Notes: a model not told the origin generated them from the sequence alone. A DNA stretch of 64,000 nt from Sphingomonadales bacterium (GCA_017309275.1 JAFKLT010000043.1:24572-88571), one strand, 5' to 3'. Positions 43,433 through 64,000 are shown, numbered from the stretch's first letter. Program-made: numbers and translations.

Positions 43433-43702
43433 GAAATGGCGGCCTCTCATCCCGTTGATGGCCGGACGAGCGGCGGTGGTCCAGCCCCTTTCCGTCGGCC
43501 GCCGGGATGTGCCCGATATCGGGCGGACTAGGCCGATGACGGGCACCTCCCCCTATGGCGTACCCCTCAAGACTATGTGGCGCCGACGGGCCTTCCGTTA
43601 TTCCCGCCAAGCGGGCATGGAACGGCAAAGAAGGCGACGCAAATCCCGGTTGCCGCGCATGTCGGCCATGGAGCGACGCCTCGGAATCACGGGGGGCTGC
43701 CG

Positions 43703-44836: not shown

Positions 44837-45289
44837 CTAGAGTTCAATCGATATCTTCACATTCTGCGACTTGATGCCCGCAAGCGCCGCGATCGCCAGG
44901 CGCGCGGCATGGATCATGATGCTCAGACGCTGCGGGTTCGCAAGCCCATCGGGAATCTCGTTATTCTGCCACACCTCGGGCCCGATCATCTCCTGGTCGA
45001 AGCGATAGGCGGCGGTGTCGCTTCGGCCGACCAGGTCGATCTCCGCGATCCCCAGCGCGTTCGCGAGCATCTGTAGATTGCTTTGGCGCGGCTGTGTCCG
45101 TCCCGATTCCCACGCCCAGATCGTCGGCCGACTGAGCCCGGTTCGTTCGGCGAGTTCGGACCGGCTCATGCCGCATTCCTCGCGAAGGCGGCGGAGGCGC
45201 GCCGGCAACGGCTCGCCGATCTCGATACCGATCTGACTTGCGGAAGCGCTCACGCCGAACCGTCCCAACCGCGACCTGCGGCAGCGCAT
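44837..45289 (-). CDS. XRE-family HTH transcriptional regulator
   Basis: LRRLREECGMSRSELAERTGLSRPTIWAWESGRTQP HTH; C-terminal IAALAGIKSQNVKISIEL. The true start may be GTG at 45253. Confidence 0.88.
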   Translation of the reverse strand: MRCRRSRLGRFGVSASASQIGIEIGEPLPARLRRLREECGMSRSELAERTGLSRPTIWAWESGRTQPRQSNLQMLANALGIAEIDLVGRSDTAAYRFDQEMIGPEVWQNNEIPDGLANPQRLSIMIHAARLAIAALAGIKSQNVKISIEL

Positions 45290-45336
45290 GCCTTTTCAAC
45301 GACATTGACACCCATGGACGCCCCCTAAAGCAACGC

Positions 45337-45396
45337 GCCATCCCCGATCTGCTATGCTGGAAATTGAAATTTCCCGTCATTCCCTGTTGGGGACAT
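45337..45396 (-). promoter_or_regulatory. Conserved ~60-bp element, copy A
   Basis: Minus strand ATGTCCCCAACAGGGAATGACGGGAAATTTCAATTTCCAGCATAGCAGATCGGGGATGGC; about 46/61 identical to 56286-56346 by manual alignment. Confidence 0.75.
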
Positions 45397-45478
45397 ATGG
45401 AAAACGCTGTGTCAAAATCGGCCGATCTTCTTTGAACAGAGGCGACCCGCAGACCCTCCGGCCCCCGAACATCAATGT

Positions 45479-47377
45479 TTAGAATGCCGTACCGAAGGTG
45501 ATCGAGAACGCCTTCGAACGATCGCCTGCCTGACGCACGACCGGCTGCGCAATGTTGAAGCGAAGCTTGCCCGGCGCGAGGTTGAACGACAGGCCGAAGC
45601 CGACCGCAACGCGCGGCTTTGCCGAATTGCCGATCAGCACTTCACCCGGCCCCAGTTCGGATCGCCGCGTGCCGAAAACCGACCCGGCATCGACGAATAT
45701 GCTCGGTGTTACCCCAAACTTATCCAGAGCGCCGTCCAGGCGCATCGACAGCTCGATCCGCCCGACATAGTAAGCGCTGCCGCCGATCGCGGTTGCCTGC
45801 CCCGGACCGGCGTTGACGGGGATCACCTTTGGTCCCAGGCCGCGAAGGTCGAAGCCGCGCATGCTGTTGCCGCCGATATAGAAACGGTCGAACAGCGGGA
45901 TATCGCGGCCGCCGAAGCCCTTCATATAGCCGCCCTCCAGCCCCAGCGAGACATCGAGGTTGCCGCTGAGGCGGCGCTGAAAAGTGCCCCCCGCGCGGAT
46001 CCGGACATAACGCGTCGTGCCCCCCGGACCGGCGATATCCTGCGTGACGCGGAGCTGGAAACCGCGCGTCGGATCAGTCGCGCTGTCGCGCCGGTCGAGG
46101 CTGAGCGCGACGCTGAAGACCGAACTGGTCGACGGGCCAAGCGCGTCGCAGAAGGGCGTGCCGTGAATGCCGACGTCGCAGAGAGCGTTCTTCCGGCGGA
46201 TGCGAAAGTCCTCGTCGGAAAAGCGGTAGTTGGCGGCGACGCGAAACCCGCGGTCGAGCTGCCGCCCGACATAGAAGTTGATGCCGCGCGCCGACTGGAC
46301 GAACAGCGAGGCGCTGTCGGCCCTGTCGAAACCGACCGCGGTCGAGCGCGAATAAAAGAAGGTGGGCGCCACGGCGAACTTGCTGCCCAGCAGATTGCCG
46401 TCGACCGCGCCGAGCTCGACGAGCGTCTGGACCTTTGAATAGCGCGCCGACACGCTGATGTCGCGGCCCGGCGCGCCGATGTTCGTGCGCGACAGCTTGA
46501 TCGACGCGATCGGTCCCTCGATCGACGAATAACCGCCCGACAGCGCCAGCCCGCCGCGCGACAGCGTCTGGAGCGACAGGAGATCGCCCTCGCGCGCCGC
46601 GCCGTCGGTCGCGGTGCTGTCGGCGGCAACGTCCATGTCGCGGCTCGGAACACCGCTGGCCGGATCGTCGTCGTCACGATCGGGGGCTGTCGACATCGGC
46701 TCGCCGGCGGCGTGCGGAGCCTGGCCGTCGAGCGCCGCAGCGGGGGCAAAGGCGTGCCGCGATCCCATGTCGGCGAGCGCGATCGCCGCCTGCCGCTTCG
46801 GGCCCGGATCGCCGAGCCAGGGCGCCGCGGCGGCTTCTCCGCCAAAGATTTGCGCCGTCGAGGGGGGTGCGTGGGCCGCAGGGTCCGACAGCGGGGCCGC
46901 ATCGAGGAACGGCGACGTATCGGCGGCAGGCACCAGCGTGTCGGCCAACAACGGCAGCGCCGATGCCGAAGGTGCATAGTCCGGCGCCCCGCCCGGCAAG
47001 GCCGGAGCATCGGCCAACACCGGCGCCAGCATCCCCACATAAGGAGGCTCCGTCCCCGCCATTTCGTCGAGCACCAAAGGTGGCCCCACCGCGTCCGCTT
47101 TGTCGATCAGGGGCCGCGTCGACGACGTCGGGGGGAACGCATGCTTTCGGGTACGCCGCGCGGCAACAGCCGGCAGCACGACGTCAAGCGGCACGTCGAA
47201 CGCACGATTGGAGGGGTAGGAAGCGATCGGCCCATAGCGCGTGTACGGGGGAAATATCGCCGGGCCGGGTACACCGGCCGATCCGGTACCGCCGATCCCG
47301 ATGGTGACCGCCACCCCCAGCGCAGTCCCCTGCACCGCCTGGTGGATGCCCTGGCAAAGTAATCCGTATCCGGACAA
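45479..47377 (-). CDS. BamA-like Omp85 beta-barrel lacking POTRA domains, with a long Pro/Ala/Asp-rich N-terminal region
   Basis: TTG start with a strong RBS; barrel motifs GLALSGGYSS, DPTRG, SMRGFDLRGLGP, IFVDAGSVFG, terminal FSITFGTAF align with bamA in this window. Confidence 0.85.
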   Translation of the reverse strand: MSGYGLLCQGIHQAVQGTALGVAVTIGIGGTGSAGVPGPAIFPPYTRYGPIASYPSNRAFDVPLDVVLPAVAARRTRKHAFPPTSSTRPLIDKADAVGPPLVLDEMAGTEPPYVGMLAPVLADAPALPGGAPDYAPSASALPLLADTLVPAADTSPFLDAAPLSDPAAHAPPSTAQIFGGEAAAAPWLGDPGPKRQAAIALADMGSRHAFAPAAALDGQAPHAAGEPMSTAPDRDDDDPASGVPSRDMDVAADSTATDGAAREGDLLSLQTLSRGGLALSGGYSSIEGPIASIKLSRTNIGAPGRDISVSARYSKVQTLVELGAVDGNLLGSKFAVAPTFFYSRSTAVGFDRADSASLFVQSARGINFYVGRQLDRGFRVAANYRFSDEDFRIRRKNALCDVGIHGTPFCDALGPSTSSVFSVALSLDRRDSATDPTRGFQLRVTQDIAGPGGTTRYVRIRAGGTFQRRLSGNLDVSLGLEGGYMKGFGGRDIPLFDRFYIGGNSMRGFDLRGLGPKVIPVNAGPGQATAIGGSAYYVGRIELSMRLDGALDKFGVTPSIFVDAGSVFGTRRSELGPGEVLIGNSAKPRVAVGFGLSFNLAPGKLRFNIAQPVVRQAGDRSKAFSITFGTAF

Positions 47378-47442
47378 CTTCCTTCCCCCTCTTCCGGAGC
47401 GCTAGGCCCCGGCCCACACCTCAGCTCGAAGCCGCCTTGGGG

Positions 47443-48801
47443 TCATGATTCCCGGAAGGATCGGTTGAAACTGTCGATCATCGGCTGGAACAGATATTGG
47501 ATCAGCGAATTCGACCCGAGGTTGATGTAAACCTCGGCCGGCATGCCCGACATCAACCGCACGCCGGGATAACGCTTCAATTGCTCGGGAGCGATTTGGA
47601 CGATCACCTTGTAGTATATCTGCTGGCTGTCCTTGTCGAAGATCGCATCGGGGCTGACCTCCTTCACCGTTCCGAGAAGGTTCGGGATCACGCGCGCCTT
47701 ATAGGGCGTCAGCTTGATTTCGGCCTTCAGGCCCGAATGGACCATGTCGATGTCGTTGGGACGCAGCCGCGCCGCGACCACGATCCCTTCGGACGAGGGC
47801 ACGATGTCCAATATCGGTTGCCCGGCCCCGACGACCCCGCCCGGGGTAATCAGCCGCAGATTGGCGACGCGCCCCTCGATCGGCGCCACGATCTGCTGGC
47901 GGGTGCGGACGTCGGCGCTGACCTTCAGCTTTTCCCTTGCCTCGGCGATCCGGAGCTGAACCTCGCGCTGCTGCGACGTCGCCTCCAGCGCCACCTGACC
48001 GCGCAGCGACACCATCTGGGCCCGCGTTTCGCCGATGGTGTCGCGAAGGCGATCGAGGTTGTTGGTCAGCTTGCCCTGCTCGCCCTCAACGAGCGCTTGC
48101 TGCCGCTGCAGCGCGAGCAGGCGCGACTTGCGCTCCAATCCCTCGTCCACCAGCATGTTCACGCCCATTTCCTCGTCGTTCAGCAGCTTGGCCTGGTCGG
48201 AAAGCGCGGCGATCTGCGCGTCGGAACTGCGTATATCTGCGTGCGACTGCCCGATCCGTTGCGTGAGGACCGCCGTCTGTTCCGAAAGCCCGCGCTGCCG
48301 CGACAGGAATTCGGCGTTGGACGCCGCGATGATCTCCTTGACCTCGGGGTCGCTCGCGACCGCGAGCAGTTCGGCCGGGTAGCGGATCGTCCGCAGCCCC
48401 AGCCGCTCGGCGGTCAGCCGCGCGTCCTGCGCCAGCAGGCCGTAAAGCGTCGAGCGCAGCGCGGCATCGGACGCGTCGGTCTGGGTGTCGTCGAGCTCGA
48501 CGAGCGGCTGGCCGGCGCGCACGAACTGCCCCTCCTCGACCAGGAAGCGACGAACGATCCCGCCCTCCAGATGCTGCACCGTCCGCCGCCCGCCACCCGC
48601 CGCCTCCAGATAGCCGGGCGCGATCGCGGCGCTGTTGAGCGGCGCGGCCCAGGCCCAGATCCCGAAGGCGATGACGAACAGGCCGATCGAGATCAGCGCC
48701 ATGCGGAGCGACCCGCGGACCCGGGGGCCCGGCGCGTGGCCGGCGAGCGCAGGCAGCGCGAGCGGCGCCGGATCGCGGCTCAGACTAAGCGGAACATTCA
48801 T
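47443..48801 (-). CDS. Type I secretion membrane fusion protein (HlyD/PrtE family)
   Basis: TM helix, WAWAAPLNSAAIAPG, TVQHLEGGIV, IVAPIEGRV, GVVGAGQPILDIVP, LMSGMPAEV; ATG overlaps the ABC gene stop. Confidence 0.95.
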   Translation of the reverse strand: MNVPLSLSRDPAPLALPALAGHAPGPRVRGSLRMALISIGLFVIAFGIWAWAAPLNSAAIAPGYLEAAGGGRRTVQHLEGGIVRRFLVEEGQFVRAGQPLVELDDTQTDASDAALRSTLYGLLAQDARLTAERLGLRTIRYPAELLAVASDPEVKEIIAASNAEFLSRQRGLSEQTAVLTQRIGQSHADIRSSDAQIAALSDQAKLLNDEEMGVNMLVDEGLERKSRLLALQRQQALVEGEQGKLTNNLDRLRDTIGETRAQMVSLRGQVALEATSQQREVQLRIAEAREKLKVSADVRTRQQIVAPIEGRVANLRLITPGGVVGAGQPILDIVPSSEGIVVAARLRPNDIDMVHSGLKAEIKLTPYKARVIPNLLGTVKEVSPDAIFDKDSQQIYYKVIVQIAPEQLKRYPGVRLMSGMPAEVYINLGSNSLIQYLFQPMIDSFNRSFRES

Positions 48802-50594
48802 GCCCCCGCTCCCTTCTGGTTGAACATGACCGGGTTGGTCTTTGCAGGGTCGCCGTGCGGTGCACCCTCGCCAGGCGCGATTACCCGCCGACTGCCGCTC
48901 ATCTCGGCAATCACGTTTCGGGCATCGCCGAATTTGGCCGCCTGTCCATCCACCATCAGCAGGATCTTGTCGGCCAGTTCGAGCAGGTTCGACCGATGCG
49001 ACACGATGATCGTCGTCATGTTCAGCGCCTTGAGCTTCTTGATCGTCGCCAACAGCGCCGCGTCGCCACGCGCGTCGAGGCTTGCATTGGGTTCGTCGAG
49101 CACGACCAGCGGCGGCAGTCCGTACAGCGCGCGCGCCAGCCCGACCCTCTGTCGCTGTCCCCCGGACAGTTGATGCCCGCCGTCGGTCAGAACGCAATCA
49201 TAGCCGCCGTCGAGGCGCAGGATCATGTCGTGGCAATCGGCCAGCTTGGCCGCCGCGATGATGTCCGCATCCCTTGCGTCGGGCCGAAATCGCCCGATGT
49301 TTTCGCGGATGGATCCCGGCAAAAGCTCGACGTCCTGCGGCAGATAGCCGACGTTGGGGCCGAAATCGCTGCGCATCCAATCGAAGGTATCGGCGCCGTC
49401 GAGCCGGACATGACCCGAACTCGGCTTCAGCACGCCGACCAGCAGGCGCGACAGGGTCGTCTTTCCCGACGCCGACGGCCCGACGATCGCGAGCATCTTG
49501 CCCGCGTCGATCGCGAAGGTGACATTCTTCAGGATCGCGCCCTTCACCCCCGGCGCAAAAAAGGTCAGCCCCTGGATCGCCATGGCGCCCGACGGCTTCG
49601 GCAGCGACATCTGCGACGGGCGCGCGACCGGCAGGTCGCAGAAGCGCGACAGGCGGCGCAGGCTTTCGCGCGCAAGCACGAACTGTTTCCAATAGCTCAT
49701 CGCCGCTTCGATCGGTGCGAGCAGCCGCGCGATGAGGATCGATCCGGCGATCATCGCGCCGCCGGTCAATTGCTGATCGAGAATGAGCAGCGCGCCGACG
49801 CCCAGCAATATGACCTGCACCAGGTTGCGGACGAACTTCATCCAGGCAAGCACCCGGCTCGACTGGAACTGCGTGCGATCCACGGACTCGGTCTCGGCAT
49901 AATAGCGTTCGGCCCAATGCCCGACCGTATCCTTGGCCATGCCCATCGCATCGATGACTTCGCTGTTGCGGACGAGCGACTCCGCATATTGCATGTTGCT
50001 GGCCGCCAGCTTCTGCGTCTCGCTGATCGCGCTGCGCGTGATCCGCTCATTGTACCAGGTGAGGCCGAACAGCACGACGGCGCCGACGAACGAGATCAGG
50101 CCGAAAATGGGATGCAAAAGGAAGACGACCACCAGGTAGAGCGGCACCCACAGCATGTCGACGACGCTGAAAACGGTGGGCGTCGATATGAAATTCTTGA
50201 CCTGCGCCAGCTCGCGCAGGGCTTCCAGTCGCGTTCCCGGTGTGATCAGCCTTTGCTCGAGCGAACGGATGAGCAGCGTCGGAGCGAGCCGCTGCGCCAT
50301 CCATGTGCCGACGCGGTTCGCCGCCTGTTGCCGCACACCGTCGAGGATCGCGCCAAGTCCGATGGCCAGCGAGATCGCGACCATCAGAAAGAACAGCGTA
50401 TCCTTGCTCTGGCTGGTCAGAACGCGGTCGAAAATCTGCATCATGTATAGCGACATGGCGAGAGCGGCCATGTTGGTGATCATCGAGAAGAGAATGAGCT
50501 GCGCGGCTATGCGGCGCTGCGGCCACAATATTTCCTTGAGCGGATTGGGTCCCTTTGCCGCTGCGCGCGGTTCGACCAGGGCGTTTGCCGCCAT
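48798..50594 (-). CDS. Type I secretion ABC transporter (PrtD/AprD/RsaD type, no C39-like domain)
   Basis: LYMMQIFDRVLTSQS, DMLWVPLY, GPSASGKTT (Walker A), GYLPQDVEL, LSGGQRQRVGLARA, LVVLDEPNASLD. Confidence 0.95.
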   Translation of the reverse strand: MAANALVEPRAAAKGPNPLKEILWPQRRIAAQLILFSMITNMAALAMSLYMMQIFDRVLTSQSKDTLFFLMVAISLAIGLGAILDGVRQQAANRVGTWMAQRLAPTLLIRSLEQRLITPGTRLEALRELAQVKNFISTPTVFSVVDMLWVPLYLVVVFLLHPIFGLISFVGAVVLFGLTWYNERITRSAISETQKLAASNMQYAESLVRNSEVIDAMGMAKDTVGHWAERYYAETESVDRTQFQSSRVLAWMKFVRNLVQVILLGVGALLILDQQLTGGAMIAGSILIARLLAPIEAAMSYWKQFVLARESLRRLSRFCDLPVARPSQMSLPKPSGAMAIQGLTFFAPGVKGAILKNVTFAIDAGKMLAIVGPSASGKTTLSRLLVGVLKPSSGHVRLDGADTFDWMRSDFGPNVGYLPQDVELLPGSIRENIGRFRPDARDADIIAAAKLADCHDMILRLDGGYDCVLTDGGHQLSGGQRQRVGLARALYGLPPLVVLDEPNASLDARGDAALLATIKKLKALNMTTIIVSHRSNLLELADKILLMVDGQAAKFGDARNVIAEMSGSRRVIAPGEGAPHGDPAKTNPVMFNQKGAGA

Positions 50595-50595
50595 C

Positions 50596-51807
50596 CTATT
50601 GCTCCCAGATAGGGGAGCTGTCGGCGGCGTGGAGCGGAAGGATCAGGCCGGAAATCAGGCCTGCAAGTTCCATCTGGCGATGGACGCCCAGCTTCGCACG
50701 GACACGCTTCAGATAGGTGCGCGCCGTTTCCTCCGACAGGCCGCAGCCCTCCGCCGCGTTGCACAGGCTGCTCGATCGCAGGAAGTGGCCGAGGAAGCGT
50801 TGCTCGGATGGCAAAAGCCCGAGGGCTTCGAGCAGCGACCGGGGCGCGTCAACCTTGCCCGCCCCCATGATGATCATCATGGCGCAGCGCGCCGTTCCGC
50901 CTTCCGACCGCGATTTGGCCGAAATCACATAGACCAGGCGCCAGTCGCCATTGCGGCAGTCGAGCCGGAATACATCCTCCACCGGCACGTCCGCCGTCGC
51001 GGCGCGGCGGATACTCTCGCGAAGCTGTTTCGCCTGTTGGGGGTCCACCGCGACGATCGCGCCGTCGGCCGCTCGGATCAGCCATTTGCGCTGTTCGACC
51101 ATCGCTGCCGCCGCGCTGTTTAGGAACAGCGGTTGGGCGTCTGCCGACAGCAACGCCATCGACAGCGAAACCCGATCGAACATGCCCTCCAGCATGGCGG
51201 AGCGGCGGGACTGGCGCGCGAGCTGCGCAACCCCGGCGGCGGAATCGGCGAGCAGAGGCGCTATCAACTGCAGGGAACAGCTGTCCTGCTCGCTGAACCG
51301 TCCGCATCCGCTCTTCCGAAAGAACAGCGCCTGAATATTCGCGCCATTCCGCCTCATCCGAATGGCGATGCCGCAATCATAGACGCGCGGCATGCTGCCG
51401 GCATCAACGCTGCCGGGCTCTTCGAGGCTGAAATCTACGGCTGCATCGGCCGCGGAAATCTGGAATTGGTGGACCGGCGCGTCCCCGATGCGCAGCCACA
51501 GATGGCCCATCATCTTCAGCAGCGCCTCGATCGCCTTGGGATTGCCCCGGGCCTCGTCCAGTCCGATCAGGAAGGAATGGCGCCGCGGCACGGCCCCCCG
51601 AAACGTGACCGTCAGAATCGCCGAAACGATGTCGAACTGTGCAAGATAGTCGTACCAGACCTTTCGGGTATTCGACGCCACGTCGACGACGCGCTCATGA
51701 CCGAGGCACACCTCATCCTGACCGAACTCACCTGCATCGCCATAGGTATCGCAACCATCGCCATTCGCGTCAGCGTAAAGCGTCGAAAGCTCCATATCCG
51801 AAGGCAT
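50596..51807 (-). CDS. Sensor-domain (GAF/PAS-like) transcriptional regulator with a LuxR-type C-terminal HTH
   Basis: PLFLNSAAAAM (PAS-like); GLLPSEQRFL...GLSEETARTYLKRVRAKLGVHRQMEL (LuxR HTH); stop lies 1 bp from the ABC start. Confidence 0.85.
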   Translation of the reverse strand: MPSDMELSTLYADANGDGCDTYGDAGEFGQDEVCLGHERVVDVASNTRKVWYDYLAQFDIVSAILTVTFRGAVPRRHSFLIGLDEARGNPKAIEALLKMMGHLWLRIGDAPVHQFQISAADAAVDFSLEEPGSVDAGSMPRVYDCGIAIRMRRNGANIQALFFRKSGCGRFSEQDSCSLQLIAPLLADSAAGVAQLARQSRRSAMLEGMFDRVSLSMALLSADAQPLFLNSAAAAMVEQRKWLIRAADGAIVAVDPQQAKQLRESIRRAATADVPVEDVFRLDCRNGDWRLVYVISAKSRSEGGTARCAMMIIMGAGKVDAPRSLLEALGLLPSEQRFLGHFLRSSSLCNAAEGCGLSEETARTYLKRVRAKLGVHRQMELAGLISGLILPLHAADSSPIWEQ

Positions 51808-52171
51808 TATGGTCCCCCCATGAGTCATAGGCCGGACGCGAGCGCCAACGCCCGCGACAGGAAATGCATGCGCGACCATGATGTGGACGCGACGCTCCGG
51901 GTACGGACAGAACGCGCGTCTTTGGCTGGGATACCTCGAACTTTGTTTCCCTAGCCGAAGCTGTCGATTGACGTGGATCTCTCGATAGCGCCGCCTGCTG
52001 CCAGAGCTGCAGGAGACAGCCGACGTCTATTTCGATTCGACCGAGAGAGTCTATTATCCCCTCGGACATATCCGTTTGGGTAGTTTCCCGCCGCGCCGCC
52101 GCGCACTAGTCTCCATGCATAAGAAAAAAGGGGCGTCGCGCTCGAATCCAGCGAGATTCAGGAGAGGCGAA

Positions 52172-53743
52172 GTGCGGAATTTCTCGACATTCGGAGCGGT
52201 CGTGCTGAGCGCGTCCTGCACCGCGCTGACGATCGCGATCGGCGCGACGCCGCTGGCCGCGCAGGACGCCCCAGTGGGCAATATCCCGTCGGGCACGATG
52301 GCCGGGCTGGCGCGCCACGTCGTCGAATTCAATCCGGATGTCGTGGCGCAGCGCCAGCAGGTCCGCATCGCAAAGGCGCGGCTCGAGTCTGCCGAGGCAG
52401 GCTATCTGCCCACGATCCAGGCAAGCGGGCTCGTCCAAAGGCGCGAGATCGACGTCAAGAAGGGCGGCACCGGCGACTCCGAATATACCGCGGGACAGGC
52501 ATCGATCGAGGCGCGGCTGCGCTTCTATGACGGCAATCGCACCTATAACGCCGTCAAGATCGCCAAGGCCGAACTGCAGGCGGCGGAGGCAGGCCTGCAG
52601 GGCACCGCCTCGGACATCCTGCTCGAACTGTTGACCAGCGCGGCCGACATCCATCTCAACCGGAAGATATTGGAATATTCGCAGGCGCAGAGCGACGCGA
52701 TCGGCGAGCAGCTTCGTGCGACCGAACGCCGGCTGGAATTCGGCGAGGCGACCCGGACCGATCAGGAACTGGCACGCGCGCGGCTCGCGACGTCGGAGGC
52801 CGGCGTCCTTGCCGCGACCGAACAGCTCAACGTCACCAGCTATCGCTTTCGATCGGTCAGCGGCCTGTCGGGCACGGCGACACCGCCCCTGCCTTCGCTC
52901 GCGGCGATACCCGGCTCGCTTGGCGAAGCGCAGCGCATCGCGTCCGAAAATGCACCGCGGTTGCGCGCCGCGCGCCTGAACGCGCAGGCGGGAAAGTCCG
53001 GGGTCAATTTCGCATCGGGGGCGCTGCTGCCGCAGCTCGACGCGGTGAGCGGCTATGAATATCTGACCGGCGGCGTCGCCAATCTGTTCACCGGCAAGCT
53101 GCCCAAGGATCGTTCGTCGCTCTATTATGGCGTCGAACTGAACGTCCCCATCTTTCAGCCGCGCGACCATGCCGAGGTTCGCCGCGCGCGCGCCGTCCGC
53201 GACCAACGGCTGGCGCAGGCGAATTCCGCCGAGCGGACGGTGGCGGAGGAAGTGGGCAGCTATTGGACGCAGTGGCAGTCGGCGAAGAGCACCATCGCCG
53301 CCGCCGAGACGGCCGTCGCCTCGATCGAGAAGGCGGCCGAAGGCATAAAGAAGGAGGCGGTGGGCGGAAACCGGACGCTGACCGACGTCCTCAACGCGCA
53401 GAACGAGCTGCTCTCGGCCCGGGTGACGCTGGAGCGGGCGCGCCGGGCGGAGTTCGTGGCGCGCGCCGGCCTGCTCGCCGCGATCGGACAGCTCGACACC
53501 GATGCGATCGTCGAGGGGCGCTGCTGCGCCGGCGACCCGATCACGCGCCCCGACTCGTCGCGGCTCGGCAAGCCCGTCATCGCGGCCGCCCCCGACGCGG
53601 CGCCGCGACCGGAGGCCGCGACCGAGCGGCCGCAACGATCGGCGCTCGGCAAGGATGTCAGGCTGGCCCGCATCGACAAGGTGCCGCCCCCGGTGGATGC
53701 CGCGCGCCCCGGCGCCTCGACACTCGGGCGCAGGCCCGACTAG
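52172..53743 (+). CDS. TolC-family outer-membrane channel
   Basis: GTG start with AGGAG RBS, signal peptide, AGYLPTI, RLEFGEATRTD, GNRTLTDVLNAQNEL. Confidence 0.93.
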   Translation: MRNFSTFGAVVLSASCTALTIAIGATPLAAQDAPVGNIPSGTMAGLARHVVEFNPDVVAQRQQVRIAKARLESAEAGYLPTIQASGLVQRREIDVKKGGTGDSEYTAGQASIEARLRFYDGNRTYNAVKIAKAELQAAEAGLQGTASDILLELLTSAADIHLNRKILEYSQAQSDAIGEQLRATERRLEFGEATRTDQELARARLATSEAGVLAATEQLNVTSYRFRSVSGLSGTATPPLPSLAAIPGSLGEAQRIASENAPRLRAARLNAQAGKSGVNFASGALLPQLDAVSGYEYLTGGVANLFTGKLPKDRSSLYYGVELNVPIFQPRDHAEVRRARAVRDQRLAQANSAERTVAEEVGSYWTQWQSAKSTIAAAETAVASIEKAAEGIKKEAVGGNRTLTDVLNAQNELLSARVTLERARRAEFVARAGLLAAIGQLDTDAIVEGRCCAGDPITRPDSSRLGKPVIAAAPDAAPRPEAATERPQRSALGKDVRLARIDKVPPPVDAARPGASTLGRRPD

Positions 53744-53881
53744 CGGCACCCCGCGACCGGAGCGGACCGCCGGCGGCGCTTCGAACGGGGCGCCCCGTTG
53801 CCGCGCGTGCGCGGGCCTGTCCGGGCGCCATGATCCGGCCCGACCTGACCCAAAATGAACCACCTCAGAAAATTGTCGGCC

Positions 53882-53899
53882 ATGTCCCCATGCAGGAAT
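53882..53899 (+). promoter_or_regulatory. Core motif TGTCCCCA-N4-GGAAT, copy C
   Basis: ATGTCCCCATGCAGGAAT, about 125 bp upstream of the RTX gene ATG. Confidence 0.6.
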
Positions 53900-54023
53900 A
53901 TTCGTCCCCGGGCCCCCGCCATATCCAATGCTCATGGCCTTGTAATCTCAAGGCCATCCGGGTGTGTTTTGGCTGGTCAGGCGAAAGCGCATCCATTCGA
54001 CCAGAAACGAAGAGGATAGCGAA

Positions 54024-56198
54024 ATGCCAACTGTTAATCCTTCAAGTGCGCCTAACGCACCCAAGGCGACGACCGCGAGGGGCCAGGTACTCGGCACGAA
54101 CGCAGTCGACTTTATCGACCTCAATGCGATCACCACGACCGCCAACCTGCCGTACAATGCGCGCGGCAACGGCGGGAACGACACCGTTTATGGCAATAAT
54201 TTCGACAATGATCTGTACGGCGATGCCGGCGACGACAATGTCATCGGCCGTTCGGGGAACGACCGGATCGATGGCGGGCTCGGCAACGACACGCTGATCG
54301 GCGATCAGGCCTCGTTCGTCGTCGTCGGACCTGGAAATGTCGTCTATTCGGGCATCGACAATGGCGGCGCCGACGGCAACGACACGCTGCTCGGCGGTGC
54401 CGGTAACGATACTGCGTGGGGCGGAGGCGGAAACGACTTCATCCGCGGCGACGCCGGTAACGACGTGCTCAACGGCCAATCGGGCGACGACCGCATCGAA
54501 GGCAATGCCGGCAACGACACCATCGACGGCGGGACCGGCAACGACAATCTGTTCGGCGGGACCGAAACCGACGTCGTGACCGGCGGCGACGGCGATGACT
54601 ATATCGACGGCGGCACCAACTCGAACGGCGTCGACAGCCTGTCGGGCGGCAACGGCAATGACGTGATCTTCGGCGATGGCGGCCCCGGCCGTAACGCCGA
54701 CACCGATTACGCCTATAACCAGAGCGGCTATAACCCGGGGCTCGGCCATGCCGACAGCATTTCGGGCGGCAACGGCGACGATCAGATCTTTGGCCAAGGC
54801 GGCAACGACTCGATCACCGGCGATGACGGCGACGACCTTCTGTGGGGTGATGACGGCAACGACACCATCTCCGGCGGGACCGGCTTCGATGCGATCGATG
54901 GCGGCGAAGGCGACGACAACCTGGCCGGCAACGACGGCGATGACGAGCTGAACGGCGATGCCGGCAACGACGTCATCCGCGGCGGTGCGGGCCTCGACTT
55001 CGTCCAGGGCGGCGCCGACAATGACGACATCGGCGGCGGCACCGGCGACGACACGTTGAACGGCAACGACGGCGACGATCTGGTCAACGGCGACGCAGGC
55101 GACGACCTGATCGCCGGACAACTGGGCGACGACGTGCTGAATGGCGGCGACGGTAACGACGTCATCACCGGCAACGGCGAGCAATCGCCCTATGACCCGT
55201 CCGACCCCGACTTCACCGACGATGACATCATCTCCGGCGGCAACGGCGACGACACGCTGAACGGCAACGACAGCGACGACATCGTGAACGGCGACGCAGG
55301 CAATGACTATGTCAGCGGCGACGAAGGCGACGACAGCCTGTCGGGCGGCACCGGCGACGACTATGTCACCGGCGGCGCCGGAAACGACGTCGCGGCCGGA
55401 AATGACGGCGATGACTCGGTCTATGGCGATGCCGGAGCCGACAATCTGTCGGGTGGCAACGGCGACGACTTCGTCTCGGGCGGCGTCGGCAACGACGTGG
55501 CGTCGGGCGATGACGGCGACGATGTCGTGACCGGCGGCCTCGGTGCCGACCTCATCTTCGGTGGCGACGGCAACGACGTCCTCGATGGTGACAACTTCGA
55601 CGATGCGGTCACCGGCGGCAACGACACGATGTACGGCGGCAACGGCTTCGACTTCATGGAAGGCGGTGGCGGTAACGACTTCATGGACGGCGGCGCGGAC
55701 GACGACACGATGTACGGCGACCGCGGCAACGACAACATGTTTGGCGGAACCGGCGACGACTATATCGAAGGCGAGTCGGGCAACGACAGCATCACCGGCG
55801 GTGAAGGCAACGACCGGATGTCGGGCGGAAGCGGAAAGGACCTGTTCAAGTTCGATTCGACCGATACGTCGCCGGGATTCGGTGACGACACGATCGAATC
55901 GCCGCTCGGCGGTCTCGACTTCAACCTCGCCAACCGCGACACGCTGGTCTTCGACGTCGATGCGGGCTTCGACCCTACATCCGACATCGTCGTGCTGACG
56001 GCCGACTGGGACGGCGACGGCGATGCCCTGGACGTGCTCGTCGCGACCGCGGCTGGCAGCGTCATCCTCGAGGATTTCTGGCAGGGCGCCTCGGCTCCCA
56101 TCCAGGCCCTCGCGGCGGCTGGCGCGTATGACTCGGTTGCGGCGATCAACGCCTACAGCCAAGGCAACGCAAGCTACGACATGATCACGTTCGTCTGA
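54024..56198 (+). CDS. RTX (GGxGxDxUx) calcium-binding repeat protein, T1SS substrate, 724 aa
   Basis: About 50 nonapeptide repeats by manual count, no Sec signal, T1SS-type C-terminal domain; GAGGA RBS. Confidence 0.93.
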   Translation: MPTVNPSSAPNAPKATTARGQVLGTNAVDFIDLNAITTTANLPYNARGNGGNDTVYGNNFDNDLYGDAGDDNVIGRSGNDRIDGGLGNDTLIGDQASFVVVGPGNVVYSGIDNGGADGNDTLLGGAGNDTAWGGGGNDFIRGDAGNDVLNGQSGDDRIEGNAGNDTIDGGTGNDNLFGGTETDVVTGGDGDDYIDGGTNSNGVDSLSGGNGNDVIFGDGGPGRNADTDYAYNQSGYNPGLGHADSISGGNGDDQIFGQGGNDSITGDDGDDLLWGDDGNDTISGGTGFDAIDGGEGDDNLAGNDGDDELNGDAGNDVIRGGAGLDFVQGGADNDDIGGGTGDDTLNGNDGDDLVNGDAGDDLIAGQLGDDVLNGGDGNDVITGNGEQSPYDPSDPDFTDDDIISGGNGDDTLNGNDSDDIVNGDAGNDYVSGDEGDDSLSGGTGDDYVTGGAGNDVAAGNDGDDSVYGDAGADNLSGGNGDDFVSGGVGNDVASGDDGDDVVTGGLGADLIFGGDGNDVLDGDNFDDAVTGGNDTMYGGNGFDFMEGGGGNDFMDGGADDDTMYGDRGNDNMFGGTGDDYIEGESGNDSITGGEGNDRMSGGSGKDLFKFDSTDTSPGFGDDTIESPLGGLDFNLANRDTLVFDVDAGFDPTSDIVVLTADWDGDGDALDVLVATAAGSVILEDFWQGASAPIQALAAAGAYDSVAAINAYSQGNASYDMITFV

Positions 56199-56248
56199 GG
56201 AAAGGCTTCGTACGGGGACCCGATCCCCGGACGAACCTCTGCAGACTG

Positions 56249-56282
56249 GAGGGCAGGCCGCCGCGGCCTGCCCTCTTTTTTT
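56249..56282 (+). terminator. Intrinsic terminator of the RTX gene
   Basis: GAGGGCAGGCC-gccgc-GGCCTGCCCTC followed by T7; a second hairpin lies at about 56208-56237. Confidence 0.9.
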
Positions 56283-56285
56283 GCG

Positions 56286-56346
56286 TTGTCCCCATCTGGG
56301 AATGACGGGGATCGCGAATTTCCGGCATTTCCGGATCAGGGATGGC
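56286..56346 (+). promoter_or_regulatory. Conserved ~60-bp element, copy B
   Basis: TTGTCCCCATCTGGGAATGACGGGGATCGCGAATTTCCGGCATTTCCGGATCAGGGATGGC; homologous to 45337-45396 (minus strand). Confidence 0.75.
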
Positions 56347-56576
56347 AGGGTCAGGACCACTCCCGCAACAAGGTGGAATCACTGCAGAGAAGATGGGTCG
56401 ATCGGCGCGGACAGAACGTCGCCTGCCCCAAGTTCGGCCAGCTGCGGCTGGCCAGCCGGCTCCGCCGCCACGCCCCCCTGGCGGCGGCCGGCATCCCCGT
56501 CGCCAGCGGACCGGCAACAGCGCCCGTCTCGACCGAAGACGCCGACATGGTTGCAGATGATCGGCCATGAAGATCA

Positions 56577-56730
56577 GTATAATAAAATCAATATTCTGAT
56601 AAATATTATATTAACCGAAATTTTTGAAATTGATTTCATAATCATAAAATTAATATTGCGATATATATTTCAGATATTGATAAGTAATATTGTGAATTTT
56701 CATATATTACTCATTTAGTTATTAAATTCA
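56577..56730. other. Extremely AT-rich block upstream of the adhesin
   Basis: 24 G+C in the 150 bp 56581-56730 (16%) in otherwise very GC-rich DNA; eight ATATT pentamers. Confidence 0.95.
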
Positions 56731-56977
56731 TCCGAAAGTATGAGTGCGCATACCGCAAATTGCCATTGCAGAATCATCGACCCAGGTTTGTATTTGACGG
56801 GTCAGTGACCAGGCACGGGCATCGGGCGCCAAAGAGACCCAGCACGATCACAACTGCATTCAGCTTCGCTCCACACCCTGTCGGCGTGGAAGCGCGGCGC
56901 CGTCCATAGCGGCCGGGCCCTTCGCGGGGAACGGCATCGGATGGGCAGATGTCGAGGTGGAGGGGGACCGAAGGGCG

Positions 56978-62900: not shown

Positions 62901-64000
62901 AGCTCGACAATGCCGCGTCGGGGGCGATGACCATTCGCTTCGTCATCTTTTCGTCGGGCTCCTTCGCCTCGCCCTCCTTTTCCAACGCGGCCGATGCGAA
63001 CGCCTATCTCACCTCGCTCAACCCGCTGGCGGGCGGCGAGCGGCCGTCGCAGGCGCTGCCGCCCGACGGGATCGGGCTCAACACCAACTATTCGGGCGCG
63101 ATTCAGACCGCGCTCGCCAATTTCACCGCGATCCCGGGGGCGAGCAACCAAGTCTTCTTCCTCAGCGACGGCAACCCGAACCAGCAGGTGCAGTTCGGCG
63201 GCGTTCCGCCCGGGGTTGTCAACTCGCTGACGGCCTCCACCGCCACCGCCTGGAACAGCTTCATCGACAATAACCACGTAAACGTCACCGCCATCGGCAT
63301 CGACAACAACCCGCTGCAGCCCCTCAACATCCAGCGGCTGCGCGACGTCGACCTGAACGATGCGCCGAACAACAATCCGATCCTGGTCGACGATTTCCAG
63401 GATCTGGTGGCGACGCTGCTGTCGGTGATCGTGCCGTCAGCGGTGGCGGGCGATCTGGACGCGAACGATGCCTTCGGCGCCGACGGCGGCCGCCTGCTCT
63501 CGATCACCATCGGCTCGACCACCTATACGTGGGACGGTGCATCGAGCATCGCGGTTTCCACCGGCGGCACGATTGCGGGAAGCGCGCTGAACGCGGTCAC
63601 GACGCCGATGGGCGGGACGCTGACGCTCGACTTCGCGACGGGCCAATATAACTACCAGCCGCCGAGCCCGATCACGGTCACCGCGACCGAGGTCTTTTCC
63701 TACGTCGTGACCGACCGCGACGGCGATACCGCGACCGCCAACCTGTCGGTGACGATCACGGCGCTGGCGCCGCCGATCGCGATGGACCTGGACGGTGACG
63801 GGGTCGAATTCTTGCCCGGCGCCGCCGGCGTCCGCTTCGACTATGATGGCGACGGCAAGCCCGAAAGCACCGCCTGGGTCGCGGCCGACGACGGGCTGCT
63901 CGCGATCGACAAGAATGGCGACGGCAAGATCAACGACGGATCCGAACTCGTCTTCGGCAAGGCCGGCGTGTCCGACCTGCAGGGACTGGCCGCGGCCTAT
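56978..64000 (+). CDS. Giant LapA-like T1SS adhesin (partial, >2341 aa): N-terminal retention-like module, VCBS/Ig-like and DUF5801-like repeats, vWA domain, C-terminal DLDGDG region
   Basis: ATG at 56978. The frame was open at every point I spot-checked, no ORF-track entry lies in this frame, and it reaches the window end (AGVSDLQGLAAAY). Motifs: PEPAAG..SSGGNF, repeated TDGDGD and DDAP, LTETFDY, FGADGPG, MIDAS DFSDS at 62831, FFLSDGNP, PIAMDLDGDGVEF. Confidence 0.9.
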   Translation, partial: MERRSIQQPAEAAGAAKAVPAGSTSIQPAGGVVQLPPGTRLDAIKLSGNDLIVTLPDGQVLVIIDGALQIPQVKIGPINIPAPTIAALIAGQEPEPAAGAPQSSGGNFEQTPGDIGSPFALGDLLPPTDFALPDREANELIPNAIDDEPEILITTPDQPAGATSATATVAEAALPPRGSEPAGSDPASTAEAISGTIQISALDQPSVVSVNGTVVTAIGQVIATPLGQITITSIAPDAIGYSYTLTDNSTDPNATDTVTVTVTDNDGDVATATLTLTITDDAPTARADTDDVADGTARGNVITGANTTSDVAGADTPGADGAVVSGVQVGSDGTFAPAGTAVNGQYGRLLIGADGTYVYIRAAGTPGGVSDVFTYRLTDGDGDTATATLTIRIPDSTPTLTVPSAGGEGTLVDEAGLPESDGGSPGSRAGDDSNATSGIIQYSAADGPAVITINGVQITGEGQEIQLDTGIFLVIAINPDSIEYAFVLTDNVIGDPASQPIMVGITDSDGDTISASFDIDILDDMPDARADTDSLTAGVDEAATGNVVTDAENDGGRDVPGADGATVTAISAGGENGTVGGATAGAYGALEIAADGSYRYVIDPENTEVQGLDGDEELTETFDYVLTDGDGDEVTATLTITIRGRDDGVTLTGLNPAGAEVTVAEASLSDGSNPDSVALTQTGSFSFDAADGIAALTIGGEPLFDGTVIPGLTIATALGILTITDFEPIFDAVGDVVGGTISYSYELIDNSLLHSGANGASLTESFAIQIVDSDGTTATASLDVQILDDNPVARSAPSITVAEDAPPISGNLLANDTRGADGAVVTSVTVGGVMVAVAATGTTSYTNANGTYSFQPNGAWTFDPVTKTSAFAVNADFTYTITDGDGDQSSALQQIRIADGTDPHASAPITLVVDDQNLETGSTPSVVQPVSASGQITFTAGSDAIASIGFGDLSTLDGGLSWTFESATQIIGWDADQNAVIVIDLGVSGNVATVTATLQYNYGLHPDTTIDDIANLGSITVVATDADGDTAAGTVNLSVSDDIPSISAAGSAAGLLVVDETDLATNATANFASLFNMTVGADMAGSGVTYSFEVTNASGLIDVATGQKIILNAAGNVVEGRLQGSPSTVAFRLTVGADGIATLDQIRAVRHPDASNPNDSVTLSPTLIRLTATITDGDGDHASATALVGAALVFKDDGPSISAANVDTNSITLTTQDADTRGAAFDTATADLSGAFSVSMVQFGADGPAGTGLATWSYSLALGSAVATTALFSNGVPVTLSLVSGEIVGSAGGTPIFSIAVNAATGIVTLTQFAEIDHPLPGSSGNYAAQLVTLAVNLVELHGTATIVDGDGDAISATAIVDLGGNIRFADDGPSISAGGTAPNLVVDESNFAVDATANLSGLFAVTTDFGADGPGSVAYKLGVTAGASGLIDSLTGEAVVLSITDGVISGRTATQEVFRISVDAAGVVTFDQSRAVIHSPDSGPDQIMFLSGSNLITLTAIVTDGDGDTAQTTADISGHFAIRDDAPVAVHDDDNVSRDGQIFADGNVLTGIGGTDENGMDGSPDSAGSDGGLRVVGVAFGATVGTLGTALAGAHGTITLAVDGSYRYDLDPNDPAVIALDSNETLTETFQYTVRDADGDASTATITISITGANDFPIARADTNWVLDGPSGSDPSATGNVLQNIAHPVAPFGSFADVADNDPDLEAITVTTAGTYVGLYGTLVIAADGGYTYTLDEDKAAVNALDAGQTLVDSFAYTISDGSLSVGSMLSVTVFGTNDAPTIGTAIARISEEGLVGGLPDNAPNATLDTTNSTAASGVLAIGDADAGETLTATLGNPGAVLTAGGIPVTWTGVGTGTLIGSAGGSEVIRVTLAANGAYTVTLSHAVDHPTVALEDLKNFSVPVSVSDGTVTTTSASAIQIVIEDDAPTAQGETGSSAQIQQDVNTLFILDFSDSIDSGELNTMIGAVQGALTQLDNAASGAMTIRFVIFSSGSFASPSFSNAADANAYLTSLNPLAGGERPSQALPPDGIGLNTNYSGAIQTALANFTAIPGASNQVFFLSDGNPNQQVQFGGVPPGVVNSLTASTATAWNSFIDNNHVNVTAIGIDNNPLQPLNIQRLRDVDLNDAPNNNPILVDDFQDLVATLLSVIVPSAVAGDLDANDAFGADGGRLLSITIGSTTYTWDGASSIAVSTGGTIAGSALNAVTTPMGGTLTLDFATGQYNYQPPSPITVTATEVFSYVVTDRDGDTATANLSVTITALAPPIAMDLDGDGVEFLPGAAGVRFDYDGDGKPESTAWVAADDGLLAIDKNGDGKINDGSELVFGKAGVSDLQGLAAAY

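What the first reader, a model, noticed from the sequence alone, without database searches (positions are those of the whole stretch)
44837..64000. Candidate undescribed surface-assembly system: T1SS operon with its own POTRA-less BamA paralogue, two RTX-type substrates, two regulators and a shared cis-element
Seen in sequence: luxR-type regulator, ABC, MFP and a BamA-like barrel are co-oriented and tightly packed (gaps of 1, -4 and 65 bp), followed by an XRE regulator. Divergently lie tolC, a 724-aa beta-roll protein and a >2341-aa adhesin. One DNA motif precedes three of these genes. Established: canonical T1SS needs only ABC, MFP and TolC, with no dedicated Omp85. Inference: a self-contained, co-regulated adhesion or surface-layer module in which the Omp85 helps assemble, anchor or display components.
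Basis: partly seen in the sequence, partly recalled or inferred. Interest (0 to 1): 0.82.

Follow-up and report, generated by a model that had tools for sequence, protein, structure and literature searches.

The report
RTX secretion operon with own Omp85
A type I secretion operon in Sphingopyxis and close relatives always carries its own stripped-down copy of the outer-membrane assembly protein BamA, a conserved partnership that I did not find described and whose function is unknown.

Summary
The genes, their order and the gaps (1, -4, 65 bp) are as described. The 632-aa Omp85 has no POTRA domain. It has a short hydrophobic N-terminus, about 240 disordered Pro/Ala-rich residues, and a 16-strand BamA-type barrel.

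The linkage is not chance. In 36 of 39 related loci with enough flank, the order RTX724 <- TolC <-> PAS-LuxR regulator -> PrtD-type ABC -> HlyD MFP -> Omp85 is kept, down to 35% barrel identity. No BamA locus has T1SS neighbours (0 of 45). Among 136 Sphingopyxis species genomes, 26 carry the Omp85 paralogue. 25 of them also carry the regulator orthologue on the same contig, and 110 have neither gene.

The interpretation needs trimming. The giant adhesin is not core. In two relatives it is followed directly by its own LapB-type T1SS and a LapG-like protease, and this genome holds those genes on another contig. The XRE gene occurs only in the Sphingopyxis loci examined. The shared palindrome marks the cargo genes, not the apparatus operon. 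Its third copy belongs to an M23 peptidase gene deleted here. One related module lacks the Omp85.

What the barrel does is inference. I found no description of it in four literature searches. It is a new variant of a known kind, with a narrow taxonomic range.

The parts
43577..44809 (+). AhpC-TSA + 2OG-Fe(II) oxygenase fusion gene (410 aa). A conserved neighbour at the XRE edge of the island in 8 of 9 Sphingopyxis loci tested. Not shown to belong to the system.
   Evidence: Pfam; tblastn 66-81% identity next to XRE in L067-70, L073, L076, L082 and L104, no match in L088
44837..45289 (-). XRE/Cro-type HTH regulator (150 aa) with its own motif-bearing upstream region. Present only in the Sphingopyxis loci examined.
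   Evidence: HTH_3 E 1.5e-15; 60-80% identical orthologues downstream of the Omp85 in Sphingopyxis loci and none in the Sphingorhabdus-type clade
45354..45397 (-). Motif copy C: ATGTCCCCAACAGGGAATGACGGGAAATTTCAATTTCC, a TCCCC-N3-GGGGA-type palindrome followed by a GGAAA..TTTCC palindrome. It lies about 65-105 nt upstream of XRE.
45479..47377 (-). POTRA-less Omp85 (632 aa). N-terminal hydrophobic helix (aa 3-25), disordered Pro/Ala/Asp-rich region to about aa 271, then a 16-strand BamA-type barrel (aa 275-632). Invariant residues include the L6 motif MRGFDLRG, the FVDAGSVFG motif and a Cys pair in L4.
47443..48801 (-). HlyD-family type I secretion adaptor (MFP, 452 aa)
   Evidence: TIGR01843, 347 bits (cut-off 209)
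48798..50594 (-). PrtD-type T1SS ABC permease/ATPase (598 aa, no N-terminal C39-like domain)
   Evidence: TIGR01842, 605 bits (cut-off 510)
50596..51807 (-). PAS-PAS-LuxR(HTH) regulator and first gene of the operon. 403 aa from ATG 51807; the longest ORF reaches 51879.
   Evidence: GerE hit in 16/16 orthologues but below the cut-off; AF2; Foldseek to VqmA, EL222 and PpsR; conserved start MS..M(D/E)(F/Y)
52173..53743 (+). TolC-family outer membrane factor (523 aa from GTG 52173), divergently transcribed
   Evidence: PF02321 E 3e-53; TIGR01844 208.6 bits, just under the cut-off of 225; start inferred
53881..53935 (+). Motif copy A plus the conserved downstream GCCATATCC element. Candidate operator and promoter of the RTX gene.
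   Evidence: found upstream of the RTX gene in 32 loci, consensus CATGTCCCCAaGCAGGaAT..CCGCCATATCC
54024..56198 (+). RTX724: a 724-aa protein that is almost entirely beta-roll, with a conserved about 130-aa C-terminal domain ending ...NAYSQGNASYDMITFV. Presumed cargo of the PrtD-type T1SS.
   Evidence: 65-85% identical in all syntenic loci; C-terminal domain shared with the RTX protein of L163
56248..56276 (+). Intrinsic terminator after the RTX gene (13-bp stem, 10 GC pairs, T tract)
56285..56330 (+). Motif copy B. In relatives it precedes an M23 peptidase gene; here it is orphaned by a deletion.
56495..56735 (.). The place where relatives carry the M23 peptidase gene. It holds the 13-32% GC island that also lies directly upstream of the adhesin gene in relatives.
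   Evidence: blastn of the flanks; GC profiles; no M23 orthologue in this genome
56978..64000 (+). Giant BapA/LapF-type adhesin, cut by the window. The complete ORF on the contig is 2672 aa from GTG 56957, or 2665 aa from ATG 56978. It is a neighbour of the module, not core, and probably cargo of a second LapB-type T1SS.
   Evidence: orthologues followed by their own T1SS and LapG-like gene

Best explanation
The region holds two adjacent type I secretion modules.

The first is a six-gene unit that is inherited as a block. One arm is PAS-LuxR regulator -> PrtD-type ABC -> HlyD adaptor -> POTRA-less Omp85. The divergent arm is TolC -> RTX724.

Shown:
- The Omp85 is a BamA-like barrel with no POTRA domains. 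It carries a conserved hydrophobic N-terminus and a variable disordered periplasmic tail.
- It sits in the position where many T1SS operons carry the outer-membrane factor.
- It co-occurs with the module all-or-none.
- The constant companion across the whole Omp85 clade is an RTX724-type protein. This holds even in a sister subfamily where no ABC or MFP lies within the contig held.

Inferred:
- ABC-MFP-TolC export RTX724 through its C-terminal signal, in the ordinary one-step way.
- The Omp85 is a dedicated outer-membrane partner of that cargo. It most likely holds or organises the calcium-folded beta-roll protein at the cell surface, or helps tether it to the outer membrane. It is unlikely to be a general OMP insertase.
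- The PAS-LuxR protein (or XRE in Sphingopyxis) binds the TCCCC-N3-GGGGA palindrome upstream of the cargo genes.

The adhesin belongs to the second module, a LapB-type T1SS with a LapG-like protease.
For: - Synteny: the same gene order is found in L005-L008, in 31 of 32 informative genome loci, and in three distant members, L162, L164 and L166. In L162 and L164 the MFP stop abuts the Omp85 start.
- 0 of 45 BamA loci have T1SS neighbours.
- Genus survey: 26 of 136 genomes have the Omp85 and 25 have the regulator orthologue. All 25 regulator genomes also carry the Omp85, about 5 kb away on the same contig. The single Omp85-only genome has a contig break there.
- The paralogue clade is monophyletic, 100/100 support.
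- Pairwise distances track those of MFP (r 0.96) and ABC (r 0.95).
- The barrel is BamA-like with invariant L6 and beta-13 motifs.
- The link to the RTX cargo goes beyond the apparatus. In L163 the Omp85 lies next to an M23 peptidase and an RTX protein of at least 1038 aa. That protein's C-terminal domain is 36% identical to that of RTX724.
- The motif lies upstream of the cargo genes in all loci.
- The regulator fold is PAS-PAS-HTH.
Against:
- The extracellular loops are short (2-20 aa, apart from L6 at 47) and conserved, and look like the ordinary BamA dome. There is no obvious docking domain for a surface protein.
- Omp85 distances correlate less with RTX724 (r 0.75; partial r 0.28 controlling for ABC) than with MFP or TolC. 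This fits an apparatus role better than a cargo role.
- The gene lies in the apparatus operon, not behind the cargo motif.
- A related module (G331, L066) has the regulator, ABC, MFP, TolC and RTX but no Omp85.
- Two family members sit away from any T1SS (L096; L165).
Confidence: 0.4

Rival explanations
1. Dedicated assembly factor. The barrel-only BamA paralogue locally catalyses or stabilises insertion of the module's own fast-evolving TolC paralogue into the outer membrane, or nucleates the outer-membrane end of the T1SS. It would then be an apparatus part rather than a cargo partner.
For: It is encoded in the apparatus operon directly after the MFP, and abuts it in L162 and L164. It keeps the BamA hallmarks: the L6 RGF motif, the FxDxG motif and a terminal aromatic. 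All top 50 structural matches are BamA barrels. Its distances co-vary more with MFP and TolC than with RTX724. The module's TolC is the fastest-evolving part, with mean distance 1.11.
Against: There are no POTRA domains, which in BamA bind substrates and the BamD-type lipoprotein (established knowledge; absence shown). The G331 module has a TolC but no Omp85. In L163 the Omp85 sits beside an RTX protein and an M23 peptidase, with no TolC within the contig held.
Confidence: 0.25
2. Envelope-spanning tether. The conserved N-terminal hydrophobic helix is not cleaved and stays in, or at, the inner membrane next to ABC-MFP. The 100-400-aa Pro/Ala-rich linker crosses the periplasm and the barrel sits in the outer membrane. 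This would position or gate the T1SS, in the manner of TonB or VirB10 architecture.
For: The N-terminal ~30 aa are conserved across genera (MSGC..AALGVAAMCGNG and LSGYG..QGTALGVAV.IGIG), unlike ordinary signal peptides. The linker varies in length and sequence but is never shorter than about 95 aa. AF2 predicts a helix at aa 3-25 at low confidence. A short motif, PWLGDPGxRRQ, recurs in the linker of Sphingopyxis members.
Against: The hydrophobic stretch is weak (Gly/Ala/Thr-rich, with Gln and His). It could equally be an extended signal peptide of the kind known from type V secretion proteins. No processing data exist, and no single polypeptide with an inner-membrane helix and an Omp85 barrel is known.
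Confidence: 0.1
3. Decoy or immunity. RTX724 is a bacteriocin-like protein that acts on the BamA of competing sphingomonads, and the barrel-only copy protects the producer or serves as its self-receptor.
For: From established knowledge, BamA surface loops serve as receptors for contact-dependent inhibition toxins and lectin-like bacteriocins, and RTX bacteriocins exported by T1SS exist in rhizobia. The paralogue keeps a BamA-like dome. The module is patchily distributed, in 19% of Sphingopyxis species.
Against: Both RTX724 (65-85% identity) and the Omp85 loops are conserved, not diversified as toxin-immunity pairs usually are. RTX724 has no recognisable toxin domain.
Confidence: 0.08
4. Linkage without a shared function. 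The Omp85 gene was captured once next to the MFP gene and is carried along because the island moves and is lost as a block.
For: The module behaves as an accessory island, all-or-none in 136 genomes. One related module lacks the Omp85.
Against: The gene stays intact and in place over divergence down to 35% barrel identity. 83 columns are invariant across 19 members (A1), and 50 remain invariant when the distant members are aligned (A3). Intergenic gaps of 0-67 bp argue for co-translation or co-transcription. A sister subfamily is again found beside an RTX724-type gene in a different arrangement.
Confidence: 0.07

Closest known systems
PrtDEF / AprDEF-type type I secretion systems (protease, lipase, S-layer and beta-roll cargo)
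   Same: A PrtD-type ABC without a C39-like domain, a HlyD adaptor, a TolC-family factor and RTX cargo with a C-terminal acidic-then-hydrophobic end.
   Different: The third gene of the apparatus operon is an Omp85 barrel instead of the outer-membrane factor, and TolC is moved to the divergent arm with the cargo. From established knowledge, no such system has an Omp85 component. I found none in the literature searches.
BamA (core of the beta-barrel assembly machinery)
   Same: A 16-strand barrel. The family profile aligns to E. coli BamA residues 420-807. The L6 (V/M)RGF and beta-13 FxDxG motifs are kept. All top 50 structural matches are BamA.
   Different: No POTRA domains. The barrel is 360-362 aa, against 388-457 aa in sphingomonad BamA. 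TIGR03303 scores 180 bits against a cut-off of 297. It forms a separate clade on a branch of 1.92 substitutions per site. The genome keeps a normal 912-aa-frame bamA elsewhere in the window.
'noNterm' Omp85 subfamily (Heinz and Lithgow 2014, PMC4104836; Leptospira paralogues, PMC11358297)
   Same: An Omp85 barrel without a folded periplasmic domain, of unknown function, with adhesin-type genes noted nearby in Leptospira.
   Different: Here a conserved hydrophobic N-terminus and a 95-400-aa disordered tail precede the barrel. The barrel is closest to BamA. The gene is fixed inside a T1SS operon, and neither paper reports a T1SS context.
Lap-type adhesin systems (LapA with LapEBC, LapG, LapD)
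   Same: The neighbouring 2672-aa adhesin has a conserved PAAG site near residue 100. In relatives it is followed by TolC, a 711-728-aa ABC, an MFP and a LapG-like cysteine protease.
   Different: That is the second module, not the Omp85 operon. A cell-wall hydrolase gene sits between its ABC and MFP genes. LapD was not looked for. In five loci (L006, L008=L090, L097, L102, L162) the LapG-like gene lies just downstream of the Omp85 gene, directly adjacent in all but L162.
Two-partner secretion (TpsB/TpsA, type Vb)
   Same: An Omp85-superfamily barrel encoded beside a large secreted repeat protein.
   Different: The barrel has no POTRA pair and is BamA-like, not ShlB/FhaC-like (no PF03865 hit). 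The cargo has a C-terminal T1SS signal. No TPS domain was detected by Pfam or NCBIfam, and the N-terminus does not look like a signal peptide.

Membership tests
Omp85 superfamily | C-terminal 16-strand beta-barrel (Pfam PF01103) | tested here: met
   PF01103 E 4.5e-46. AF2 gives 16 strands over aa 275-632 with pLDDT 75-90.
Omp85 superfamily | Conserved loop-6 (V/I/M)RG(F/Y) motif and beta-13 FxDxG 'lid-lock' motif | tested here: met
   R507 G508 F509 and F561 D563 G565 are invariant in 19 members.
BamA orthologue | Five (at least one) N-terminal POTRA domains | tested here: not met
   No PF07244 or PF08478 hit. AF2 gives aa 1-271 as disordered. The PDB profile match starts at BamA residue 420.
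BamA orthologue | Score above the curated equivalog cut-off (TIGR03303) | tested here: not met
   180 bits against a cut-off of 297. The genome's real bamA is at G000:C43:41568-42806, in a 912-aa frame.
noNterm Omp85 (Heinz and Lithgow class) | No folded N-terminal periplasmic domain before the barrel | tested here: met
   There is, however, a long disordered tail and a conserved hydrophobic N-terminus.
noNterm Omp85, Leptospira/Cytophagales DUF5982 type | DUF5982 motif over the first two strands | tested here: inconclusive
   The Pfam scan returned only PF01103. I did not verify that a DUF5982 model is in the library used.
Type I secretion system, PrtD/AprD class | ABC permease/ATPase of the PrtD subfamily | tested here: met
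   TIGR01842, 605 bits against a cut-off of 510.
Type I secretion system, PrtD/AprD class | HlyD-family periplasmic adaptor | tested here: met
   TIGR01843, 347 bits against a cut-off of 209.
Type I secretion system, PrtD/AprD class | TolC-family outer membrane factor | tested here: met
   PF02321, 181 bits. TIGR01844 gives 208.6 bits, slightly under its cut-off of 225.
Type I secretion system, PrtD/AprD class | Cargo with RTX nonapeptides and an uncleaved C-terminal signal | tested here: met
   21 HemolysinCabind stretches. The C-terminus reads ...ASYDMITFV. Actual secretion is not testable with these tools.
Lap-type adhesin system | Periplasmic BTLCP protease (LapG, PF06035) and an adhesin with an N-terminal (T/P)AAG site | tested here: met
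   PF06035 gene on contig C19. It lies next to the adhesin's T1SS in G386 and G054. PAAG is conserved in the window and L067 adhesins. This applies to the neighbouring module only.
Lap-type adhesin system | LapD-type c-di-GMP receptor | not tested
Two-partner secretion (TpsB) | Two POTRA domains and a ShlB-type barrel (PF08479, PF03865) | tested here: not met
   No such Pfam hits.
LuxR/GerE-type regulator | C-terminal four-helix GerE HTH | tested here: inconclusive
   GerE matches in 16/16 orthologues, but all are below the gathering score (best E 1.8e-4). AF2 shows four C-terminal helices after two PAS-like domains. Foldseek matches the PAS+LuxR proteins VqmA and EL222.

The most novel reading that the evidence does not exclude
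This would be the first type I secretion system with a dedicated Omp85 component. The BamA-derived barrel would act as a second outer-membrane station that receives or tethers the exported RTX beta-roll protein, together with an M23 peptidase. That would make it a hybrid between one-step T1SS export and Omp85-mediated surface display. The sister subfamily beside exosortase/PEP-CTERM loci would use the same barrel for another surface-sorting route.
Probability: 0.3. Interest if true: 0.8.

Novelty: new variant of a known kind. Interest (0 to 1): 0.6.

Why it matters
T1SS is taught as a three-part machine, and Omp85 proteins as POTRA-bearing insertases or translocases. This locus shows a POTRA-less BamA derivative fixed inside a T1SS operon across two sphingomonad lineages (Sphingopyxis-type and Sphingorhabdus-type) and always accompanied by one type of RTX protein.

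That gives the poorly understood barrel-only Omp85 proteins a concrete genetic context that can be tested. It also suggests that some T1SS cargo needs a dedicated outer-membrane partner.

The system occurs in cultured, non-pathogenic Sphingopyxis strains, so simple deletions could settle the question. The taxonomic range is narrow, which limits the general impact unless similar pairings turn up elsewhere.

Tried and rejected
- Hidden POTRA domains in the 300-aa N-terminal part: rejected.
- Lipoprotein anchoring through the conserved Cys in the Sphingorhabdus-type clade (AAMCG): the Cys is absent in most Sphingopyxis members and the -1 residue is usually not lipobox-like. Not pursued.
- The adhesin as second cargo of the PrtD-type system: made unnecessary by its own LapB-type T1SS.
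- Joining contigs C43 and C19: no sequence overlap. Adjacency is inferred only from two relatives.
- Homologue search with the RTX724 C-terminal region: no scored hit, not even orthologues. Treated as a technical failure.
- Plasmid carriage: only bamA hits.
- Rfam families in 44.5-57.3 kb: none.
- Sigma-70 promoter scan: 0 sites, and the terminator count is at the chance level apart from the one after the RTX gene.
- Mirror-tree partial correlations: all components co-vary, so this is weak for discriminating partners.
- Literature: four searches for an Omp85 or BamA paralogue combined with T1SS or RTX terms found nothing relevant, and the Sphingopyxis + RTX + T1SS search returned no papers at all. 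The Zymomonas T1SS preprint does not mention Omp85.
As a result there were no RNA evidence, no class-wide survey, and no look at the possibly decayed copy in G451.


Full report
**What is in the window**

The minus strand carries, in transcription order:
- a 427-aa ORF, more likely 403 aa from ATG 51807
- a PrtD-type ABC exporter (48798-50594)
- a HlyD adaptor (47443-48801)
- a 632-aa Omp85 (45479-47377)

The gaps are 1, -4 and 65 bp. After a further 189 bp comes an XRE regulator (44837-45289).

The plus strand carries a TolC-family factor (likely start GTG 52173), a 724-aa protein that is almost pure RTX beta-roll (54024-56198) with a strong terminator, and a giant adhesin from 56978.

**The Omp85 has no POTRA domains**

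- Pfam and NCBIfam match only the barrel.
- In an alignment of 19 family members, conservation begins exactly at LSRGGLALSGGYSS, which is barrel strand 1. Upstream lies a variable-length Pro/Ala/Asp-rich stretch and, at the very N-terminus, a conserved hydrophobic segment.
- A profile of the family aligns to E. coli BamA residues 420-807 only.
- AlphaFold2 gives pLDDT below 40 for aa 1-271, with only a low-confidence helix at aa 3-25. It gives a confident 16-strand barrel for aa 275-632.
- All 50 best structural matches are BamA barrels.
- The L6 MRGF and beta-13 FVDAG motifs and a Cys pair in L4 are invariant. The surface loops are short and conserved.
- The genome keeps an ordinary bamA in a 912-aa frame in the same window.

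**The linkage with the T1SS is conserved**

Gene order RTX(724-736 aa) <- TolC <-> regulator -> ABC -> MFP -> Omp85 was found in the following sets:
- Four divergent homologues looked up by identity.
- A scan of one genome per species, which returned 35 family loci. Of the 32 with informative flanks, 31 have all six genes in the same order. One short contig shows the MFP upstream. One Sphingorhabdus MAG has an orphan copy.
- Three still more distant relatives (35-41% barrel identity), found through an exhaustive HMMER search. In two of them the MFP stop abuts the Omp85 start.

None of 45 BamA loci fetched by the same scan has T1SS genes nearby.

In a sample of 400 genomes from 112 genera of the family, the paralogue appears only in Sphingopyxis. 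Among 136 Sphingopyxis species genomes, 26 have the paralogue and 25 have the regulator orthologue. All 25 regulator genomes also carry the Omp85, about 5 kb away on the same contig. The one Omp85-only genome has a contig break next to the Omp85.

The paralogue clade is monophyletic (100/100) on a long stem and splits into a Sphingopyxis branch and a Sphingorhabdus-type branch. Its pairwise distances follow those of MFP and ABC (r 0.96 and 0.95). It evolves about twice as fast as they do and half as fast as TolC.

**What is core and what is not**

- A related module in another genus (G331, L066) has the regulator, ABC, MFP, TolC and a 740-aa RTX protein, but a CoA-transferase gene follows the MFP. 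The barrel is thus an addition to an RTX-T1SS, not a general requirement.
- XRE follows the Omp85 only in the Sphingopyxis loci examined. In L006, L008=L090, L097 and L102 a LapG-like cysteine protease gene takes that place. In L162 a LapG-like gene follows after one small intervening ORF.
- The adhesin is complete on the contig, at 2672 aa.
- In G386 and G054 its orthologue is followed directly by TolC(465), ABC(728, LapB-type), a cell-wall hydrolase and MFP(424), with LuxR(246) and a LapG-like gene on the opposite strand.
- The window's genome has these genes, 82-86% identical for the three transport genes (LapG-like 53%), on the 10.6-kb contig C19. The two contig ends do not overlap, so adjacency here is inferred.
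- The adhesin therefore has its own secretion and release system and gives no RTX Pfam hit. It is a neighbour, not a demonstrated second cargo.
- The two modules are again adjacent, in a different arrangement, in the distant locus L162. This hints at a functional association of the two systems.

**The cis-element**

ATGTCCCCA-N3-GGGAAT contains a TCCCC-N3-GGGGA palindrome. It occurs exactly three times in the window.

In relatives it has three settings:
- Upstream of the RTX gene in 32 loci, followed about 35 nt later by a conserved GCCATATCC.
- Just after the RTX terminator.
- In Sphingopyxis, upstream of XRE. The last two classes carry a second GGAAA..TTTCC palindrome.

The copy after the terminator precedes an M23 peptidase gene in Sphingopyxis, or a 271-aa ORF in the other clade. 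In this genome the M23 gene is deleted. Only its leader remains (56431-56495), now abutting the AT-rich island that also precedes the adhesin gene in relatives.

The motif is also present in the Omp85-less G331 locus, which has no XRE. It is absent from the regulator-TolC intergenic region of the Omp85-bearing loci. It thus marks the cargo genes. The module's PAS-PAS-LuxR protein is the best candidate binder, but this is inference.

**A wider clue**

A sister subfamily of the barrel (34-37% identity to the distant T1SS-linked member P0097; 497 aa) lies beside an exosortase EpsH/EpsI/PEP-CTERM locus. On its other side it faces an M23 peptidase gene and an RTX protein of at least 1038 aa. The C-terminal domain of that protein is 36% identical to that of RTX724, including the NAYSQG.S.YDMI end. 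Across the whole clade, the constant companion is therefore an RTX724-type protein, often with an M23 peptidase.

**Mechanism**

Export of RTX724 by ABC-MFP-TolC follows from family membership. The role of the barrel is inferred.

I favour a dedicated outer-membrane partner of the RTX cargo, acting in tethering or display (about 0.4). The reasons are the RTX companionship beyond the apparatus and the loss of the POTRA domains that an insertase would need.

The main rival is a dedicated assembly factor for the module's TolC (about 0.25). This is favoured by the operon position and by the stronger co-variation with MFP and TolC.

Less likely readings are an envelope-spanning tether that uses the conserved N-terminal helix and the Pro-rich linker, a decoy or immunity role, and neutral hitch-hiking.

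**Known or new**

T1SS of this class and barrel-only ('noNterm') Omp85 proteins are both known (PMC4104836, PMC11358297). Neither paper mentions a T1SS context. Five literature searches found no description of an Omp85 inside a T1SS operon.

I class it as a new variant of a known kind: real, conserved and experimentally tractable, but taxonomically narrow and without a demonstrated function.

Noticed in passing
window 56330-56950; L067 17892-18878: Relatives carry a 328-aa M23 peptidase gene between the RTX gene and the adhesin, behind motif copy B. This genome has lost it and has no orthologue elsewhere. An M23 gene also lies next to the barrel in the exosortase-linked subfamily (L163).
   Followed up: yes
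window 56570-56750; L067 18880-19120, L068 18840-19080, L069 18140-18380: A 200-240-nt island of 13-32% GC lies directly upstream of the adhesin gene in this genome and in three relatives. It is therefore a conserved feature of the adhesin's control region, not a local accident.
   Followed up: partly
G000 contig C19 (L156 375-8927); L157 8640-16896; L159 9831-18155: A second T1SS with an unusual cell-wall hydrolase gene (PF07486) between its 728-aa ABC and its MFP, plus a LuxR and a LapG-like protease. It follows the adhesin in two relatives.
   Followed up: yes
L163 and L167 (metagenome contigs): A sister subfamily of the POTRA-less barrel (497 aa) sits next to an exosortase EpsH/EpsI, PEP-CTERM, SurA_N-like and glycosyltransferase locus. 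This is another surface-sorting context.
   Followed up: partly
window 43577-44809: An AhpC-TSA/2OG-Fe(II) oxygenase fusion gene is conserved next to XRE in 8 of 9 Sphingopyxis copies of the island tested. 2OG oxygenases of this Pfam family include prolyl hydroxylases, and the barrel's tail is Pro-rich. This may be pure coincidence.
   Followed up: no
Omp85 aa ~185-200 (window ~46780-46830) and alignment A1 columns 355-395: A short motif, (A/V)(A/S)PWLGDPGx(K/R)RQ, recurs in the otherwise unconserved disordered tail of Sphingopyxis members, twice in some. It is a candidate binding motif.
   Followed up: no
G451:C6:268103-274850: In one Sphingopyxis genome the Omp85 match covers only aa 122-362 in a 243-aa frame, and the regulator match has an internal TGA. 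This may be joint decay of the module.
   Followed up: no
L005 12261-13949: The public gene call for the oxygenase gene runs antisense through the XRE gene (562 aa, against 410 aa here). This is probably an over-extended ORF in high-GC DNA, so XRE is unannotated there.
   Followed up: partly
family-wide: The C-terminal half (aa ~180-420) of the module's regulator has paralogues of 350-420 aa in 118 of 400 sampled genomes of the family, often several per genome. This is a large, apparently uncharacterised PAS-LuxR regulator family.
   Followed up: no
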